Shown one piece after another: positions 1 to 12,963 of a stretch of DNA of 12,963 bases. The translations under genes and the position numbers were made by a program. A model generated the notes under the pieces. The model saw only the letters and a program-made list of their open reading frames with translations, did not search any database and was not told the origin of the DNA. The stretch spans positions 1-12,963 of IMG/VR virus record IMGVR_UViG_2541047825_000010, one strand, 5' to 3'. Within the stretch, counting starts at the first letter, position 1; every line of letters begins with the position of its first letter. This DNA comes from a virus. Lineage: Duplodnaviria; Heunggongvirae; Uroviricota; Caudoviricetes.

Positions 1-1377
1 TCATACGTCAGCCCCTTGTGCATATCGTCTGCCACGCGCAGCAGGTGCATTTGATGCTGTGCAAATCTGTCTGGCTTCATCCTGGTCACATGCAACAAAG
101 TGTCCGTTGCAGAACCGCTGGTAAACCGTACCAAGTGAGCCAAAACGGTTTTTCGTCACAATGATTTCAGCAAATGGCGCGGCGCTACTGTTCTCGTCAT
201 ATACAGCTTCCCGATAGAGCATGATGATTGAGTCTGCGTCCTGTTCAATGCTTCCTGAATCACGCAAATCTGCGTTTGTCGGGCGTTTGTTTGGTCGCTT
301 CTCAACATCGCGCGAAAGCTGACTCAGGGAGATAACAGGCGTTTTCAGGTCTTTCGCCATCGCCTTCAGGCTTCCGGAGATGTGAGCAATTGCGAGGTCG
401 TTGCGATCTGCTTTCGGCTTCTCAATCAGGCCAAGATAATCCACCATGATGAGTGACAGGTTTGGATTTTCCTGTTTGTGCCGTTCTGCGATTGAGCGTA
501 TTTCTTCGACCGATAACCGCGAGGCATCGACTACCCATACATCCAAATCTGCAAGCTGACTCATGCCGTTAGCAACGCGCGCCCAGCCTTCGTCATCCAT
601 CGATGCAGGATTTCGCAGCACACTAACCGACATCCTCCCGGCGTTGGCAATACTTCGCTCTGCAATCTGCAATGCGCTCATTTCCATTGAGAAAATCAAC
701 ACTCCGCGCCGGACGTCAGAACCAGGAATAACGCGGCTTGCAACGCCTTCGGCAATCTTCAGCGCCAGTTCGGTTTTACCCATACCAGGACGAGCGGCGA
801 TAATCACCAGGTCTTCTGCGTTCATCCCTCCGGTGATGGCGTCAAGTTCGTCGATTCCGGTCTTCAGGGTATCTGACTCTTCTCCGTTCCTCAGACGCCT
901 GTCAAGCGTGTCAGTGTAGTCAGTGATGATTTCCCCTAACCGTACCGGTTTAACCTCGTCACGGGGCTTTCTGATGGCTGAAAGACGCTTTACAAGTTCA
1001 TCCATCGCCTGACTCGATGCGTCGATGGTTCCGCTCTGAATTGGTTCACGCATTTCATCCATGATTTCCAGCACCAGACGGCGGTGATAGTTATCCGCGA
1101 CCATTCCGGCATATCCCTTCAGGTTTGCGGCACTCGGGCAGTTTTTGCTGGTCATCAGGATTGACGTGAAATGCTCCTCTCCGCACGCCTCGGCAACCAT
1201 CAGCGCGTCGATTAAATTTCTGTTTCGCGCCTGCTTGCGGATAACCTCGAAGGCTTTCCGGTAGAGCGGAATTGAAAACGCTTCCGGCTCCAGCGTTGCC
1301 AGAACGTCGCTGGCGGTTGGAGTTAATCCACCAATCAGCAGGCCACCGATAACGCTCGCTTCGATATCCTGTCTCAT
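1..1377 (-). CDS. Replicative DNA helicase, DnaB family (phage P22 gene 12-type), 458 aa
   Basis: Full-length 458-aa ORF. Walker A P-loop [14 protein letters not shown] plus DnaB-like motifs [28 protein letters not shown]. Start ATG overlaps the stop of the upstream O-like gene (ATGA, 1374-1377). Stop codon is at window positions 1-3. Confidence 0.9.
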
Positions 1378-2321
1378 GCAATCCCCCTGTCTGCAAACTT
1401 CCCTTCCCGTACTCCCGTTAACGAATCTTCCCTCAACAGGTAATCAAAATCAGCCGTCCAGCCCGTGTCGTTGTCTCCGAAGTAAAACGGCTTGGCCTGA
1501 TGCACAAACGCCCTGACATACGCTCTGAAACCGTCCACGTTTGGCGTTTTCAGTTGCGGGATGATTTTCTTCAGGCGGCGTTTGCGTTTCTCGTTGACTG
1601 CAACAGCATGTGGAAGTCTGTCACCGACTTCGGTGTTGTAGGCGTTCAGGAAGGATTCGTAGTCGATTCGTTCTGCCTTGCGACGTTCAGGTTTAACCTG
1701 CCCATCGCCGCCCCCATTGGGGGGTAGGGGGGTATTATTTATATTCTTGTTAATACCTTCTTGTTCATGATGTGCGGTTGTTTGTGCGGCTTCATGTGCG
1801 CTTTCATGTGCGGAATGTGCGCTGAAAGCTGCGCCATTACTGGCTTCGTCATGTGCGGCATCATGTGCGGTTGTTTGTGCGGCATCATGTGCGGGTAAAT
1901 TGTCCATTTTTTGAGCATATTCATGGTAATTTGTGATGGTGATCACACGACCTTTTTGCTTCTCTCCATCAATGGAGATCATCCCTTCTTTCACAAAAAC
2001 CTGAAGCATCCGCTCAACCTGATCACGGCTTGCTGGCTTGCCATGTCTGTCGCATAACTGAAGACCTAAATCAGCTGCTGTCACAACCAGTTGACCGGGT
2101 TGCAGATGCCATTCATGACCTTTGAAATTCGCTTTGTATGGCTTTCTGGCGGCATTCAGGAGAAGGTTTTCCCACAGGGTGCGAAGATAAACATCTTTCG
2201 CCCATGACTGTTTCAGAATGCTCCGGTACAACGGAATGTAACCAGTTTTCTGGTTCTCCATCCTGTTGCTCCTGCGCTCGTGTGCGGCGCTGAAATCGTA
2301 GATTTTTGCTGTATTGCTCAT
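1374..2321 (-). CDS. Replication initiator, lambda O / P22 gene 18-like, 315 aa
   Basis: N-terminus [10 protein letters not shown] resembles lambda O (MTNTAKILNF, recalled). Lies between cII and the helicase as in lambdoid replication modules. Its central part is encoded by iteron repeats, giving a His/Ala-rich linker ([18 protein letters not shown]...). Confidence 0.85.
1765..1895. repeat. Candidate origin of replication: iterons inside the O-like gene, next to an AT-rich tract (1731-1764)
   Basis: About seven direct copies of a CATGTGCGG-type motif. The longer unit ATGTGCGGTTGTTTGTGCGGC occurs twice (about 1770 and 1870). The AT-rich block follows in the gene's reading direction, as in lambda ori. 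Confidence 0.6.
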
Positions 2322-4002: not shown

Positions 4003-4064
4003 AATTTAAGTTTTCTTCAAAAATACTCTTGACCATTAATTAAAGAGATCTTAAATTTAAGCCA
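4003..4064 (+). promoter_or_regulatory. OL operators and PL promoter
   Basis: Operator-like 18-mers ATTTAAGTTTTCTTCAAA (4004-4021) and ATTAAAGAGATCTTAAAT (4039-4056). -35 TTGACC (4029-4034), 17-bp spacer, -10 TAAATT (4052-4057), with the operator overlapping the promoter. Confidence 0.55.
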
Positions 4065-4251: not shown

Positions 4252-4551
4252 ATGACAGTAGTCATTACATATCTGGCTGACGATAACGCCAGAAATCGCC
4301 GCAGAGCACGCAGACAGGCTCAACGTGAACAGGCAATGCAAGAGCAGCGACTGGCGCGAAAAATTGCGCTAAAGCTCTCTGGTTGCGTCAGGGCAGATAA
4401 AGCAGCATCACTCGGAAGCCTTCGCTGCAAGAAGGCAGAAGAAGTCGAGCGTAAACAGAACCGTATTTACTACCGCAAGCCACGCAGTGAAATGGGTGTG
4501 ACTTGTGTTGGTCGCCAGAAAATGAAATTAGGCAGCAAACCACTTATTTGA
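4252..4551 (+). CDS. N: Antitermination protein N (P22 gene 24 equivalent), 99 aa
   Basis: N-terminal arginine-rich motif NARNRRRARRQAQREQ. C-terminus ...NRIYYRKPRSEMGVTCVGRQKMKLGSKPLI resembles the lambda N C-terminus as recalled. First gene after PL and nutL. Shine-Dalgarno GGAGG. Confidence 0.85.
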   Translation: MTVVITYLADDNARNRRRARRQAQREQAMQEQRLARKIALKLSGCVRADKAASLGSLRCKKAEEVERKQNRIYYRKPRSEMGVTCVGRQKMKLGSKPLI

Positions 4552-6011: not shown

Positions 6012-6617
6012 ATGAGCAAAGAATTTTACGCAAGACTGGCAGCTATTCAGGAGAATCTGAACGCGCCAAAGAATCAGTACAACTCATTCGGCAAATATAA
6101 ATACAGAAGCTGCGAAGACATTCTTGAAGGCGTTAAGCCGTTACTGAATGGCCTGTTTTTATCAATCAGCGATGAAGTTGTGTTGATTGGTGATCGGTAT
6201 TACGTGAAAGCCACGGCAACTATTACCGATGGCGAAAACAGTCATACAGCAACCGCTCTTGCACGAGAGGAAGAAAGCAAGAAAGGAATGGATTCTGCAC
6301 AAGTTACTGGAGCTACAAGCTCTTATGCACGCAAGTATTGCCTCAATGGTTTATTCGGCATTGATGATGCGAAAGATGCAGATACCGACGAGCATAAACA
6401 TCAGCAGAACGCAGCAGCAAAGCAATCAAAACCATCACCTACACCTGAACAGGTTCTAAAAGCATTCACTGACGCAGCAATGCAGAAAAACACCGTAGAA
6501 GAGCTTAAACAGGCGTTCGCCAAAGCGTGGAAGATGCTCGAAGGCACACCGGAGCAGCACAAAGCGCAGGACGTTTACAACATCAGACGAGACGAATTAG
6601 AAGGAGCGGCTGCTTAA
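6012..6617 (+). CDS. erf: Erf, essential recombination function (single-strand annealing protein), 201 aa
   Basis: MSKEFYARLAAIQENLNAPKNQYNSFGKYKYRSCEDILEGVKPLL... closely matches P22 Erf as recalled. First ATG in frame; the track start at 5982 is a TTG. Confidence 0.9.
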   Translation: MSKEFYARLAAIQENLNAPKNQYNSFGKYKYRSCEDILEGVKPLLNGLFLSISDEVVLIGDRYYVKATATITDGENSHTATALAREEESKKGMDSAQVTGATSSYARKYCLNGLFGIDDAKDADTDEHKHQQNAAAKQSKPSPTPEQVLKAFTDAAMQKNTVEELKQAFAKAWKMLEGTPEQHKAQDVYNIRRDELEGAAA

Positions 6618-7000
6618 TGGCACATTCGATTACAGTAAGACTAAACAAACCCGCAAGAGAGTTTCAGGCCGGGGAAAATATCGGATTCAACATCCGTGCT
6701 GGCGTTCAGTATTACGATCGCCAGACAAAAAAGAAAGAATGGACAAACTACAGCGCCGTTGTATTTGCCAAGCCGGGAGCGCAAGCGGATTACTACCGTA
6801 GTGTTCTTGTTGAAGGTGGCATTGTGGAAATTACCGGAGAAAACATCAGGGTTGATGTTTATCAGGGGCAAAATGGTCAATCAATCACTCTTGAATTACT
6901 GAATGCAAAGATTGGATTTGCAGCTTCAGGAAACAGCCAACAGCAGCAAAGTAGCAATCATCAAAATCATCCTGAATACGACGATTCAATTCCATTCTAG
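6617..7000 (+). CDS. Compact SSB-like single-stranded DNA-binding protein, 127 aa
   Basis: C-terminal tip PEYDDSIPF resembles the conserved bacterial SSB tail DDDIPF, after a Q-rich linker and a short strand-rich N-terminal domain. Shine-Dalgarno AAGGAG. TAATG overlap with erf. Confidence 0.65.
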   Translation: MAHSITVRLNKPAREFQAGENIGFNIRAGVQYYDRQTKKKEWTNYSAVVFAKPGAQADYYRSVLVEGGIVEITGENIRVDVYQGQNGQSITLELLNAKIGFAASGNSQQQQSSNHQNHPEYDDSIPF

Positions 7001-7023: not shown

Positions 7024-7317
7024 ATGCCAGCGCCTCTGTATGGTGCGGATGACCCGCGCCGCTGTTCCGGCAATTCCGTATCGGAGGTGCTGGATAAATT
7101 CAGGAAAAACTACAACCGGATAATGTCGATACCGCAGGAAACGAAAGAGGAAAAGGAATTTCGCCATTGTATATGGCTTGCAGAGAAAGAAGAACGCGAG
7201 CGAATTTACCAGACATCAATCCGACCATTCCGCAAAGCCACATATACCCACTTCCCTGAAATTGACCCGCGCCTGCGTAATTACCGCTCACGCTATGGCG
7301 CTATCAGTAATGACTGA
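7024..7317 (+). CDS. Hypothetical protein, 97 aa
   Basis: Shine-Dalgarno TAAGGA 7 nt upstream. Position after erf and the 97-aa length are compatible with P22 Abc2 (anti-RecBCD), but this rests on synteny and length only. Confidence 0.6.
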
Positions 7318-7492: not shown

Positions 7493-7926
7493 AACAAATG
7501 TCACTAATTGAGATGGATGGTTTTCTGAAAGGTAAATGCATCCCACGAGATTTAAAGGTTAACGAAACAAACGCTGAATATCTGGTGCGTAAATTTGCTG
7601 AAGCGGAGGCCAAGTGCGCGGCGCTGGCTGCTGAAGTTGAGGCTGTGAAATCAGCACATCAAGATGCTGTAAACACCATCATGTATACCGCCAATCGAAC
7701 GGGTGTTTTATACACAGAGAAGGCAATTCAAATGTCCTGCAAAACCCCGGCCACCGATGCTTTCCTGACTGAAGTCCGGGCTAAGGCGTTTGATGACCTT
7801 TGCGCGGCGTTCGTTAAGCACGCGTCGGTGTCCGGGCTGGACGATGGCGACTGCGTTACGGTGAAAGAGGCGACTGACGCCCTGCTGCATTGTGCGGAAC
7901 AGCTTCACAAGGGAGTGCATTCATGA
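7489..7926 (+). CDS. Hypothetical protein, 145 aa
   Basis: ATGA overlap with the upstream ORF. Shine-Dalgarno GGAG. Ala/Glu-rich predicted helical segment. No family recognised. Confidence 0.6.
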
Positions 7927-8156
7927 GCAACCTACTACCATGTCCATTCTGTGGCGGTGCAGCGCACGTTGCCAGCGAAGCAGATCACCCTGAATATGGC
8001 TCTGGCGGTCGATTCTATTTCGTTCGATGCGGTACGTGTCGCGCTCAATCTGGTAGCAAATATGCAGCGCCTGGAAATGACTGCGCGATTTTTTATTCAG
8101 AGGTTAGAGCAGAGTGGAATCAGCGAGCAAAGGAGGCAACCAGTGAGCAAGATTGA
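7923..8156 (+). CDS. Lar-family-like zinc-ribbon protein (restriction alleviation), 77 aa
   Basis: N-terminal LLPCPFCGG...C..C zinc-ribbon signature typical of the Lar family as recalled. ATGA overlap with the upstream gene. Confidence 0.6.
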   Translation: MSNLLPCPFCGGAAHVASEADHPEYGSGGRFYFVRCGTCRAQSGSKYAAPGNDCAIFYSEVRAEWNQRAKEATSEQD

Positions 8157-8550
8157 CTATCAGGCACTGCGTGAAGCGGCAGAGAAAGCCGGTGAAGATA
8201 AGTGGCAGGCTAAAAAAATAAATGGTGATTTTTTCGTTATTCGTCACGGTAGTTATACAAGACAGCATGGCTACACATCGTATCAACCCATTGCGGAGAT
8301 TGATTGTAAGCCAGTCCGGGATTTTGTTGCCAAGGCTAATCCGGCTACCGTGCTGGAATTACTGGATGAACTGGAAGCAGCAAAAAAGCGCATTGCAGAA
8401 CTGGAAGCGCGGGAAATATCGCTCCCGGAACGTAGCAGCATGCTTCATCGAACAGATTTTCACGATGATTACCAAACGGTAATGGCATACAAAGTTTCTG
8501 AAGTCATCGATGCAATCCGCGCTACTGGCATTCGCATCAAAGGAGAGTGA
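8143..8550 (+). CDS. Ead/Ea22-like protein, 135 aa
   Basis: GTG start 6 nt after a strong AGGAGG. KIDYQALREAAEKAGED and NPATVLELLDELEAAKKRIAELEA resemble Ea22-family motifs as recalled. Overlaps the Lar-like gene by 14 nt. Confidence 0.6.
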   Translation: MSKIDYQALREAAEKAGEDKWQAKKINGDFFVIRHGSYTRQHGYTSYQPIAEIDCKPVRDFVAKANPATVLELLDELEAAKKRIAELEAREISLPERSSMLHRTDFHDDYQTVMAYKVSEVIDAIRATGIRIKGE

Positions 8551-10987: not shown

Positions 10988-11188
10988 ATGCAACACGAAC
11001 TACAGCCTGATTCACTGGTTGATTTGAAATTCATCATGGCCGATACTGGCTTTGGTAAAACCTTCATCTACGACCGGATTAAGTCCGGCGACCTGCCAAA
11101 AGCCAAAGTTATCCACGGGCGAGCAAGATGGTTATATCGTGACCATTGTGAATTCAAAAATAAGCTCTTAAGCCGCGCCAATGGGTAA
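10988..11188 (+). CDS. AlpA/Xis-like excisionase-type DNA-binding protein, 66 aa
   Basis: LVDLKFIMADTGFGKTFIYDRIKSGDLPKAKVIHGRARW fits the AlpA-family HTH pattern as recalled. Shine-Dalgarno GGAGA. Lies next to the att-like tRNA fragments. Confidence 0.65.
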   Translation: MQHELQPDSLVDLKFIMADTGFGKTFIYDRIKSGDLPKAKVIHGRARWLYRDHCEFKNKLLSRANG

Positions 11189-11261
11189 AATAGCGGGTAA
11201 AATATTTCTCACATCTAAAAAACACCATTCTAATCAATCCCCTGCCGCGTCAAGTAGATGT

Positions 11262-11276
11262 CTGCAGGGGACACCA
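11262..11276 (+). other. tRNA 3'-end fragment CTGCAGGGGACACCA (acceptor 3' strand plus CCA; att-associated)
   Basis: Matches the 3' terminus of the same tRNA. No corresponding 5' half anywhere in the window. Confidence 0.45.
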
Positions 11277-11662
11277 GATACCCTTCAAACGATATCTACC
11301 TTCACCCCGTAAAAGATAAGTTTGGCAGCACATTTGCCCTATCTACTCATTTTTCCTGCAACAGGTTGAAATCTCAACACGGTCAGAAAACGCTGATGAC
11401 TAAACAGCCCTGGGCTGGGCGATGTAACCATCACACACAATCCTGATCGCGAAATATGGCGTGACTTGATACTTCACTCCACAATGCTTTCCTTGATGAA
11501 TTCGCAGGCCCGTGATACACGGGACAGGTCGCTGAATTACGACAATGCCCTGGAAATCAGCGAGCCGTGTATCCGGAGTACATTTGAGCGACTGTACCAG
11601 AACATGAATGAGGCGTTTGGATTAGGCGATTATTAGCAGGGCTAAGCATTTTGGTATTATTA

Positions 11663-11706
11663 TTTTCCGGTTGAGGGATATAGAGCTATCGACAACAACC
11701 GGAAAA
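11663..11706. terminator. Inverted repeat, candidate bidirectional terminator at the cscB 3' end
   Basis: TTTTCCGGTTG (11663-11673) and CAACCGGAAAA (11696-11706) with a 22-nt loop and AT-rich flanks. Lies between convergent reading frames. Confidence 0.4.
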
Positions 11707-11715
11707 AGTTTACGT

Positions 11716-12963
11716 TTATATTGCTGAAGGTACTGGCGTTTCCATCACTATTTGCTCACGTTTTTTACTCAGGAAGAAAATGCCAAATAGCAACATCAGG
11801 CAGACAATACCCGAAATTGCGAAAAAAACCGTCTGGTAGCCTGCGTGGTCAAAGAGTATCCCAGTCGGCGTTGAAAGCAGCACAATCCCCAACGAACTGG
11901 CAATTTGAAAACCAATCAGAAAGATCGTCGACGACAGGCGCTTATCAAAATTTGCCACGCTGTATTTGAAGACGGATATGACACAAAGTGGAACCTCAAT
12001 GGCATGTAACAGCTTCACTAATGAAATAATCCAGGGGTTAACGAATAGCGCGCAGGAAAGGATACGCAACGCCATAATCACAACACCGATAAGTAATGCA
12101 TTTTTTGGCCCTACCCGATTCACAAAGAAAGGAATAATCGCCATGCACAGCGCTTCGAGTACCACCTGGAATGAGTTGAGATAACCATACAGGCGCGTTC
12201 CTACATCGTGGGATTCGAATAAACCTGCATAAAAGACAGGAAAGAGTTGTTGATCAAAAATGTTATAGAAAGACCACGTCCCCACAATAAATATGACGAA
12301 AACCCAGAAGTTTCGATCCTTGAAAACTGCGATAAAATCCTCTTTTTTTACCCCTCCCACATCCGCCGCTACGCACTGGTGTTCCTGCTCTTTAAAACGC
12401 ATGTTGATCATCATAAATACAGCGCCAAATAGAGAGACCAACCAGAAGTTGATATGGGGACTGATACTAAAAAATATGCCAGCAAAGAATGCGCCAATAG
12501 CATAGCCAAAAGATCCCCAGGCGCGCGCTGTTCCATATTCGAAATGAAAATTTCGCGCCATTTTTTCGGTGAAGCTGTCAAGCAAACCGCATCCCGCCAG
12601 ATACCCCAGACCAAAAAAGAGCGCCCCCAGAATTAAACCTACAGAAAAATTGCTTTGCAGTAACGGTTCATAAACGTAAATCATAAACGGTCCGGTCAAG
12701 ACCAAGATGAAACTCATACACCAGATGAGCGGTTTCTTCAGACCGAGTTTATCCTGAACGATGCCGTAGAACATCATAAATAGAATGCTGGTAAACTGGT
12801 TGACCGAATAAAGTGTACCTAATTCCGTCCCTGTCAACCCTAGATGTCCTTTCAGCCAAATAGCGTATAATGACCACCACAGCGACCAGGAAATAAAAAA
12901 GAGAAATGAGTAACTGGATGCAAAACGATAGTACGCATTTCTGAATGGAATATTCAGTGCCAT
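11716..12963 (-). CDS. cscB: Sucrose:H+ symporter, LacY-family MFS (CscB-like), 415 aa
   Basis: Twelve-helix hydrophobic profile. Clear LacY-like blocks (DKLGLKK, GPFMIYVYEPLLQ, EYGTARAWGSFGYAIG, PKNALLIG). N-terminus MALNIPFRNAYYRF matches CscB as recalled. Start codon is at the window edge. Confidence 0.85.
   Translation of the reverse strand: MALNIPFRNAYYRFASSYSFLFFISWSLWWSLYAIWLKGHLGLTGTELGTLYSVNQFTSILFMMFYGIVQDKLGLKKPLIWCMSFILVLTGPFMIYVYEPLLQSNFSVGLILGALFFGLGYLAGCGLLDSFTEKMARNFHFEYGTARAWGSFGYAIGAFFAGIFFSISPHINFWLVSLFGAVFMMINMRFKEQEHQCVAADVGGVKKEDFIAVFKDRNFWVFVIFIVGTWSFYNIFDQQLFPVFYAGLFESHDVGTRLYGYLNSFQVVLEALCMAIIPFFVNRVGPKNALLIGVVIMALRILSCALFVNPWIISLVKLLHAIEVPLCVISVFKYSVANFDKRLSSTIFLIGFQIASSLGIVLLSTPTGILFDHAGYQTVFFAISGIVCLMLLFGIFFLSKKREQIVMETPVPSAI

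What the first reader, a model, noticed from the sequence alone, without database searches (positions are those of the whole stretch)
6617..7000. Compact SSB-like protein with a canonical SSB C-terminal tip, coupled to Erf
The 127-aa protein ends in ...PEYDDSIPF, mimicking the DDDIPF tail that bacterial SSB uses to recruit partner proteins, and has a Q-rich linker. A phage SSB mimic coupled to a single-strand annealing protein could redirect host SSB-interacting proteins.
Basis: partly seen in the sequence, partly recalled or inferred. Interest (0 to 1): 0.45.

Follow-up and report, generated by a model that had tools for sequence, protein, structure and literature searches.

The report
Prophage SSB-like protein beside Erf
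This is a real but already catalogued lambdoid-prophage gene (the HK97 gp40 / HK022 type, called "SSB-1b"): a very divergent single-stranded-DNA-binding protein that keeps the host SSB's C-terminal docking tip and sits in the phage recombination module just after the annealing protein Erf.

Summary
ORF 6617-7000 (+) encodes 127 aa ending PEYDDSIPF, with a Q/N/S-rich linker. Its ATG overlaps the erf stop codon (TAATG).

It is a true, very divergent SSB homologue rather than a mere mimic.
- **Sequence:** hhalign aligns it to E. coli SSB with aromatic residues at all four ssDNA-stacking positions. Pfam and TIGRFAM do not reach threshold.
- **Tip:** an FDD(D/S)IPF-like tip is kept in 156 of 217 family members despite hypervariable linkers.

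The gene is not new. It is 99% identical to a phage HK022 ORF and 94% to HK97 gp40, which a 2025 paper named "SSB-1b" from predicted structure. It occurs in 579 of 5,426 complete E. coli genomes and has not been studied experimentally.

The most likely role is a Rec-module SSB whose tip recruits Erf and/or host SSB partners, as shown for HK620 SSB-Sak4.

One side finding: Erf's C-terminal three-helix module recurs on Sak4-, Rad52- and RecT-type annealing proteins. It may be the tip receptor.

The parts
6617..7000 (+). SSB-1b (HK97 gp40 / HK022-type) gene, 127 aa plus stop
   Evidence: Translation. PHROG 44 SSB, E 2e-28. 99% identical to the HK022 ORF and 94% to HK97 gp40.
6617..6925 (+). OB-fold domain, residues 1-103
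6926..6973 (+). Disordered Q/N/S-rich linker, residues 104-119
   Evidence: pLDDT below 50 for residues 108-121. 12/16 residues are Q/N/S with none charged. Length and sequence are hypervariable across the family.
6974..6997 (+). Acidic C-terminal tip PEYDDSIPF (residues 120-127), SSB-Ct-like
   Evidence: Aligns with E. coli SSB ...DFDDDIPF. The family consensus is FDD(D/S)IPF, present in 156/217 members.
6600..6619 (+). Shine-Dalgarno GAAGGAG (6600-6606) and the TAATG stop/start overlap with erf (6615-6619)
   Evidence: Read directly from the sequence. The same overlap occurs in 79/80 related viral loci.
6012..6617 (+). erf, a single-strand annealing protein of 201 aa counted from the ATG at 6012
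   Evidence: Pfam ERF E 2e-44 over residues 5-143. 75% identical to P22 Erf.
6432..6614 (+). Erf C-terminal three-helix module (residues 141-201), a candidate docking site for the SSB tip
   Evidence: Lies outside the Pfam ERF domain and matches no Pfam family. AF2 pLDDT 92, three helices. The same module occurs on AAA_24/Sak4 (E 1e-15), Rad52 (E 8e-8) and RecT-type annealing proteins. Its function is inferred.
7024..7317 (+). abc2, the anti-RecBCD gene that completes the Rec module
   Evidence: Pfam PF11043 E 7e-63. PHROG 656.
4029..4057 (+). PL-like promoter that would drive the early-left operon (N, erf, ssb, abc2)
   Evidence: Consensus scan only. An N-like antiterminator lies at 4252-4551.

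Best explanation
The gene encodes a small, highly diverged member of the bacterial SSB superfamily: the HK97 gp40 / 'SSB-1b' type found in lambdoid phage recombination modules. It is transcribed from PL with erf and abc2, and its translation is coupled to that of erf.

**Proposed mechanism**
1. The OB domain coats the single-stranded DNA produced during phage recombination and replication.
2. The flexible Q-rich linker presents a C-terminal FDDxIPF-type tip that is chemically equivalent to the host SSB-Ct.
3. Through that tip, the ssDNA-bound protein recruits proteins that recognise SSB-Ct. The most likely partner is the phage's own Erf, via its C-terminal three-helix module. Host SSB-interactome proteins may also be recruited. 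Annealing would then proceed on SSB-coated DNA instead of being blocked by it.

**Shown here:** the ORF, the coupling to erf, the predicted fold, the remote homology, the conservation of the tip, and the gene context.

**Inferred:** ssDNA binding, oligomeric state, and which partner binds the tip.
For: - **Remote homology:** hhalign against Enterobacterales SSB gives probability 87.7%, E 3.4e-6. It places Y32, Y45, F50 and Y82 opposite E. coli W40, W54, F60 and W88. That these four residues stack on ssDNA is my own knowledge (Raghunathan 2000). Y45 and F50 are invariant and Y32 nearly invariant in the family.
- **Family assignment:** PHROG 44 SSB, E 2e-28.
- **Tip:** conserved in 156/217 members with hypervariable linkers.
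- **Context:** always in a recombination module. erf-X-abc2 in 80/80 close loci. Distant members lie directly after ERF, AAA_24/Sak4-like or Rad52-type annealing proteins, or after RecT plus exonuclease.
- **Precedents:** HK620 SSB occupies the same slot, and its last 6 residues are required to load and stimulate Sak4 (PMC5928155). The Redβ C-terminal three-helix bundle binds the SSB-Ct peptide (PMC6393309).
- **Erf C-terminal module:** predicted to be three helices and shared by four unrelated annealing-protein cores.
Against: - No Pfam SSB hit. TIGR00621 scores 16 bits against a cut-off of 54. The family profile finds no SSB among PDB sequences.
- No evidence on oligomeric state.
- The gene is interrupted by an IS element in the viable phage mEp234 and frameshifted in HF4s. 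The HK97 reference has a 1-nt insertion that removes the tip. The gene, or its tip, is thus dispensable for plaque growth.
- Relatives lacking the tip still sit next to Erf. P22 Erf works with no phage SSB. The tip-Erf link is therefore not obligatory.
Confidence: 0.7

Rival explanations
1. Decoy or hijacker of the host SSB interactome. The main role of the tip would be to compete with host SSB for ExoI, RecQ, RecJ, RecO, PriA, the Pol III chi subunit and similar proteins. This would either pull them onto phage DNA or titrate them away from host DNA, rather than serve Erf.
For: - The tip consensus FDD(D/S)IPF is almost the host sequence DFDDDIPF.
- A Leminorella member carries exactly PMDFDDDIPF.
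- A 2026 preprint proposes such interference with ExoI for another phage SSB-like protein with an FDDDIPF tip.
Against: - Nothing here shows binding to any host protein.
- The gene is fixed inside recombination modules next to annealing proteins, which points to a recombination role.
- The two roles are not mutually exclusive.
Confidence: 0.15
2. An OB-fold adaptor that does not act as an SSB. It could be a functional replacement for P22 Abc1, which occupies the same slot between erf and abc2, working with Abc2 on RecBCD.
For: - P22 has the unrelated Abc1 at exactly this position, with the same stop/start overlap with erf.
- The HK620 gene in this slot was first annotated as abc1.
Against: - No sequence similarity to Abc1.
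- The HK620 'abc1' proved to be a genuine SSB.
- Aromatic residues are conserved at the ssDNA-stacking positions.
- Family members occur in modules that lack Abc2: Vibrio phages with RecT plus exonuclease, and loci with RdgC.
Confidence: 0.05
3. A replication SSB, or a substitute SSB that lets the phage avoid dependence on host SSB or affects defence systems that monitor SSB and ssDNA. Any link to Erf would be incidental.
For: Phage SSBs are documented triggers of Retron-Eco8, AbpAB, Hna and DRT10. This rests on the titles and abstracts returned by the literature search and on the preprint read.
Against: - The gene sits in the PL recombination module, not with the O/P-type replication genes at 1-2321.
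- No defence-related evidence was obtained for this family.
Confidence: 0.1

Closest known systems
HK97 gp40 / phage HK022 unnamed ORF = 'SSB-1b' of lambdoid Rec modules (Genome Res 2025, PMC12315714)
   Same: Same gene: 94% identical to HK97 gp40 and 99% to the HK022, mEp043 and mEp213 ORFs. Same erf-X-abc2 context. The paper classifies it as SSB-like from AlphaFold 3.
   Different: Nothing substantive. The paper does not discuss the C-terminal tip. The HK97 reference sequence carries a 1-nt insertion that replaces ...DDSIPF with ...DDSNPILI. No experiments exist.
E. coli SSB and the bacterial SSB family (PF00436 / TIGR00621)
   Same: OB fold, aromatic residues at the W40, W54, F60 and W88 positions, a disordered low-complexity linker, and an acidic ...DDxIPF tip.
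   Different: - Sequence similarity is below every curated threshold.
- The protein is much shorter (127 vs 178 aa), with a linker of about 16 aa.
- The tip is YDDSIPF rather than FDDDIPF.
- It is phage-borne and non-essential.
- A tetrameric state is unknown.
HK620 SSB (HkaK, 'SSB-2'), the cognate SSB of Sak4 (Hutinet 2018, PMC5928155)
   Same: Same slot (annealing protein - SSB - abc2). Has a host-like tip (NDYPPF). The tip was shown to be needed for loading the annealing protein and stimulating annealing. This is the best functional model.
   Different: No detectable sequence similarity. 195 aa. Partners Sak4 rather than Erf.
Sf6 / ES18 Rec-module SSB ('SSB-1')
   Same: A phage SSB directly after an annealing protein that carries the same C-terminal module. 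Its tip is ...NFDDSDIPF.
   Different: A canonical SSB close to E. coli SSB in sequence, whereas the window protein is a separate, sequence-isolated family (215 clusters among 1.84 billion representative proteins).
Redβ C-terminal domain binding SSB-Ct (Caldwell 2019, PMC6393309)
   Same: A small three-helix C-terminal module on an annealing protein that binds the SSB C-terminal peptide. The Erf C-terminal module is also predicted to be three helices.
   Different: No sequence match between the Erf module profile and any Redβ chain in the PDB. Binding by the Erf module is untested.
P22 Abc1
   Same: Occupies the same position between erf and abc2, with the same stop/start overlap.
   Different: Unrelated sequence: 94 aa, with no Q-rich linker and no IPF tip.

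Membership tests
Bacterial SSB family (Pfam PF00436 / TIGR00621) | Sequence match above the curated family threshold | tested here: not met
   No Pfam hit at E<=1. TIGR00621 scores 16.4 bits against a cut-off of 53.95. The family profile finds no SSB among PDB sequences at a significant E-value.
Bacterial SSB family (Pfam PF00436 / TIGR00621) | N-terminal OB fold of the SSB type | tested here: met
Bacterial SSB family (Pfam PF00436 / TIGR00621) | Aromatic ssDNA-stacking residues equivalent to E. coli W40, W54, F60 and W88 | tested here: met
   hhalign (probability 87.7%) pairs Y32, Y45, F50 and Y82 with them. These residues are invariant or nearly invariant in the family. The result depends on a remote alignment.
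Bacterial SSB family (Pfam PF00436 / TIGR00621) | Disordered linker followed by an acidic tip ending in -IPF | tested here: met
Bacterial SSB family (Pfam PF00436 / TIGR00621) | Homotetramer that binds ssDNA cooperatively | not testable with these tools
   Needs biochemistry or multimer modelling.
SSB-1b (HK97 gp40 type) of lambdoid Rec modules | Close sequence identity to HK97 gp40 | tested here: met
   94% identity over 127 aa, E 1e-80.
SSB-1b (HK97 gp40 type) of lambdoid Rec modules | Located inside the early-left Rec module between the annealing protein and the anti-RecBCD gene | tested here: met
   Order erf (6012-6617), this gene, abc2 (7024-7317). Same order in HK97 and HK022.
PHROG 44 (single strand DNA binding protein) | Profile match | tested here: met
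   E 2.3e-28, residues 2-127.
HK620 HkaK-type SSB (SSB-2) | Sequence similarity to HkaK | tested here: not met
   BLASTP E 72.
P22 Abc1 | Sequence similarity to Abc1 | tested here: not met
   No alignment at E<=100.

The most novel reading that the evidence does not exclude
The roughly 57-aa three-helix module at the C-terminus of Erf (window 6432-6614) may be a portable receptor for FDDxIPF-type SSB tips.
- It has been grafted onto at least four unrelated annealing-protein cores in enterobacterial phages: Erf, Rad52/Sak, RecT and Sak4/AAA_24.
- SSB-1b would keep a host-like tip so that the same receptor can use either the host or the phage SSB as a landing pad.
- If so, this would give a simple, transferable docking code between annealing proteins and SSB.
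Probability: 0.3. Interest if true: 0.55.

Novelty: already known. Interest (0 to 1): 0.27.

Why it matters
- **Annotation:** the gene is labelled 'hypothetical protein' in RefSeq, yet it occurs in 579 of 5,426 complete E. coli genomes, about 11%. It also occurs in classic phages (HK022, HK97, Sf101, CUS-3, Stx phages). It can be annotated as a Rec-module SSB-like protein.
- **Recombineering:** pairing an annealing protein with its cognate SSB is known to improve recombineering and its portability between hosts (PMC12054835). An Erf plus SSB-1b pair is an untested, compact candidate.
- **Docking module:** the shared C-terminal module on annealing proteins, if it is the tip receptor, would explain how Rec-module parts are shuffled so freely. 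The 2025 survey left this point open.

Tried and rejected
**Searches that gave nothing**
- Pfam scan of the protein: no hit.
- phmmer and family profile against PDB sequences: only weak matches (7d8j SSB E 0.04; RIM1 E 0.5) and poly-Q noise.
- tRNA and Rfam scans of the window: nothing.

**Comparisons that ruled out a relationship**
- BLASTP to HK620 SSB: none.
- BLASTP to P22 Abc1: none.
- Profile search of 1.84 billion representative proteins: only 215 clusters and no bridge to canonical SSBs.

**Searches that were too narrow to be useful**
- Viral-contig scan: returned only 97-100% identical loci, so it gave no diversity.
- Genome-contig scan: only 12 loci.
- Homologue search with the Erf C-terminal module: only short fragments, so the module's distribution could not be counted at scale.

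**Other dead ends**
- Supplementary tables of the 2025 Rec-module survey are not held.
- The profile of the Erf C-terminal module against the PDB hit only a 27-aa helix of colicins E2, E3 and E9 (E 4e-4). I regard this as helix resemblance, not homology.
- Multimer modelling was not available.

Full report
**1. The observation**

Window 6617-7000 (+) translates to a 127-aa protein: MAHSITVRLN...AKIGFAASGNSQQQQSSNHQNHPEYDDSIPF*.
- The erf stop TAA (6615-6617) overlaps the ATG at 6617-6619 as TAATG. A GAAGGAG Shine-Dalgarno sits at 6600-6606.
- The upstream ORF, 201 aa from the ATG at 6012, is Erf (Pfam PF04404, E 2e-44). The downstream ORF at 7024-7317 is Abc2 (PF11043, E 7e-63).
- Residues 104-119 are 12/16 Q/N/S with no charged residue. 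The last eight residues have pI 4.05.
- BLASTP against E. coli SSB aligns only the tail...PEYDDSIPF with ...PMDFDDDIPF.

The description is correct at the stated coordinates.

**2. Is the tail more than chance?**

I collected the family from two searches.
- Of 217 full-length members, 145 end in an acidic-xPF tip and 11 more carry it with a short extension.
- The consensus is F(W/Y)-D-D-(D/S)-I-P-F, with P at position -2 in 145/145 and F at -1 in 141/145.
- The linker between domain and tip varies from about 15 to about 110 residues and is poorly conserved.
- From family composition, such a hexapeptide at a fixed position is expected at about 1e-6.

The tip is therefore under selection. A minority of about 28% lacks it. 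Several of these are frameshifted or truncated sequences. One coherent subgroup ends in Q/N-rich ...NFxQPQR.

**3. What the protein is**

*Sequence.* Sequence methods barely connect it to SSB.
- There is no Pfam hit.
- TIGR00621 scores 16 bits against a cut-off of 54.
- The family profile finds nothing significant among PDB sequences.
- Across 1.84 billion representative proteins the profile finds only 215 clusters, so the family is small and sequence-isolated.
- PHROG 44, 'single strand DNA binding protein', does match at E 2e-28.

*Structure.* The structural evidence is clear.
- AlphaFold2 with a 41-sequence alignment gives pLDDT about 95 for residues 1-105. The model has eight strands and one helix (residues 55-63), the OB topology, followed by a disordered tail.
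- The 50 best Foldseek PDB hits are all SSB or PriB, with E down to 3e-5 and probability 1.0.
- Among predicted viral structures (BFVD), every named hit is a phage SSB.

*Remote homology.* Profile-profile alignment to Enterobacterales SSB gives probability 87.7% and E 3.4e-6 over residues 32-94.
- It places Y32, Y45, F50 and Y82 opposite E. coli W40, W54, F60 and W88.
- That these are the four ssDNA-stacking residues is my own knowledge of the 1EYG structure, not something tested here.
- Y45 and F50 are invariant and Y32 nearly invariant in the family.

I conclude that this is a genuine, strongly diverged SSB-superfamily protein with the full three-part SSB architecture. It is not a tail-only mimic.

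**4. It is already catalogued**

- The protein is 99% identical to an ORF in phages HK022, mEp043 and mEp213. It is 95-98% identical to ORFs in HK544, HK633, Sf101, CUS-3 and several Stx phages, and is usually annotated 'hypothetical protein'.
- It is 94% identical to HK97 gp40.
- A 2025 survey of lambdoid recombination modules names HK97 gp40 'SSB-1b'. The basis is an AlphaFold 3 fold resembling bacterial SSB with 15% or less sequence identity. The survey states that these proteins have not been studied experimentally (PMC12315714). It does not mention the C-terminal tip.
- One likely reason is that the HK97 reference sequence has a one-base insertion seven codons from the end, giving ...DDSNPILI*. 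Without that base it reads ...DDSIPF*.
- The gene is present in 579 of 5,426 complete E. coli genomes, up to four copies each. PGAP labels it 'hypothetical protein' next to 'ERF family protein'.
- Vibrio phage relatives (about 50% identity) are annotated 'nucleic acid-binding, OB-fold protein' or 'single strand DNA binding protein'.

**5. Genomic context**

The window is the early region of a lambdoid prophage.
- Its gene order is: replication genes (1-2321, minus strand), repressor, PL-like promoter (4029-4057), N-like antiterminator (4252-4551), small ORFs, erf, this gene, abc2, ea-type genes, and an excisionase-like ORF.
- All 80 close relatives in IMG/VR carry erf, this gene and abc2. The same stop/start overlap occurs in 79 of them.
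- Distant family members also sit in recombination modules:

| Immediately upstream | Where seen |
|---|---|
| ERF | several metagenomic contigs |
| AAA_24 / Sak4-like protein | Leminorella |
| Rad52_Rad22 proteins | Yersinia |
| RecT plus YqaJ exonuclease | Vibrio phage 1.236.O; a metagenomic contig |

- In P22 the same slot holds the unrelated Abc1.
- In HK620 it holds the unrelated SSB HkaK.
- In Sf6 it holds a canonical SSB ending NFDDSDIPF.

**6. Most likely mechanism**

The best experimental precedent is HK620. Its Rec-module SSB binds ssDNA, stimulates Sak4-mediated annealing and recombineering, and needs its last six residues (NDYPPF) for Sak4 to bind SSB-coated ssDNA (PMC5928155). In addition:
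- Redβ binds the E. coli SSB C-terminal peptide, and the interaction requires its three-helix C-terminal domain (PMC6393309).
- The specificity of annealing proteins for SSB tails is considered the main determinant of recombineering host range (PMC12054835).

By analogy, I propose that the OB domain coats ssDNA and the tip recruits Erf and/or host SSB partners. ssDNA binding, oligomeric state and partner identity are all inferred.

**7. Side finding that bears on the mechanism**

*The module is shared between unrelated cores.*
- Erf residues 141-201 (window 6432-6614) lie outside the Pfam ERF domain and match no Pfam family.
- The same module ends the Leminorella AAA_24 protein (52% identity over 54 aa, E 1e-15). 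It also ends the Yersinia Rad52-type proteins (36%, E 8e-8) and divergent Erfs.
- In phage records it lies at the end of genes annotated RecT-like (Tyrion gp35, phiV10, SPN1S), Rad52/22 (mEp235, mEpX2; the related HK75 and Sf6 genes are annotated 'phage recombination-related protein' and 'Erf-like') and 'ATP-binding protein' (Erwinia vB_EhrS_59).
- AlphaFold2 predicts three helices with pLDDT 92.

*It does not depend on a phage SSB.* The module occurs with SSB-1b, with a canonical phage SSB (Sf6), with Abc1 (P22) or with no phage SSB at all (Tyrion). Its partner is therefore probably something common to enterobacterial hosts. The invariant host tip DFDDDIPF is an obvious candidate, and SSB-1b copies it.

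*Tip and module tend to go together.* All eight annealing proteins I examined directly upstream of tip-bearing SSB-1b genes in Enterobacterales carry the module. The four Erfs upstream of tip-less SSB-1b genes do not.

*Caveats.*
- The sample is small.
- The HMM was built from the positive cases.
- The contrast is confounded by host clade.
- The module is physically adjacent to the SSB gene, so plain linkage could produce the same pattern.

I treat it as a testable lead with probability about 0.3.

**8. Evidence against the main explanation, and caveats**

- The gene is cut by an IS element after about 49 codons in the viable phage mEp234.
- It is frameshifted in HF4s.
- It has lost its tip in the HK97 reference sequence.
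- It is therefore accessory, presumably because host SSB can substitute, as in P22.
- Nothing was tested about tetramerisation.

**9. Verdict**

The kind of system is known, and this very gene has been catalogued as SSB-like, although it has never been tested experimentally. Interest is modest. The shared C-terminal module on annealing proteins is the one element that may deserve follow-up.

Noticed in passing
window 6432-6614 (Erf residues 141-201); L087 3138-4001; L103 2246-3001; L109 1236-2177: A roughly 57-aa, confidently predicted three-helix module ends Erf. It also ends non-homologous annealing proteins: AAA_24/Sak4-like, Rad52_Rad22 and RecT-like. It has no Pfam family, and it occurs both with and without a phage SSB downstream.
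   Followed up: partly
L004 3787-3810 (HK97 gp40 3' end) compared with window 6974-7000: The HK97 reference has one extra base seven codons before the end, giving ...DDSNPILI* instead of ...DDSIPF*. The annotated gp40 therefore hides the SSB-like tip. It is either a sequencing error or a real tip-loss mutation.
   Followed up: yes
L095 2001-3295 (phage mEp234); L002 2501-2896 (phage HF4s): The SSB-1b gene is truncated by an IS insertion in mEp234 and split by a frameshift in HF4s. Both are isolated, plaque-forming phages, so the gene is dispensable for growth in the laboratory.
   Followed up: partly
L086 3021-3503, L092 3001-3522, L111 2501-3013, L112 2501-3049, L113 2501-2980: A subgroup of the family lacks the IPF tip and ends in Q/N-rich tails (most often ...NFxQPQR). 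The neighbouring Erfs have different C-termini. In L086 and L113 an RdgC gene follows two genes downstream.
   Followed up: partly
window 10988-12963: An excisionase/AlpA-like ORF (10988-11188) is followed after about 530 bp by a sucrose/oligosaccharide MFS permease gene on the minus strand (11716-12963). There is no integrase gene or tRNA in between, so the prophage end looks unusual or degraded.
   Followed up: no
window 7890-8156 and 7951-8550: A Lar-like restriction-alleviation ORF (PHROG 599) overlaps, in another frame, the start of an Ea22-like ORF. The true gene starts here are unclear.
   Followed up: no
Erf residues about 174-200 (window about 6531-6611): The profile of the Erf C-terminal module matches a 27-aa helix in the receptor-binding coiled coil of colicins E2, E3 and E9 (ERQAKAVQVYNSRKSELDAA, E 4e-4). 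This is probably helix resemblance only.
   Followed up: no
window 6012-6617 compared with L093 856-1473 (P22 erf): The Erf N-terminal domain is over 90% identical to that of P22, but the C-terminal module is only about 40% identical. This marks a mosaic boundary inside the gene, between the annealing core and the C-terminal module.
   Followed up: partly
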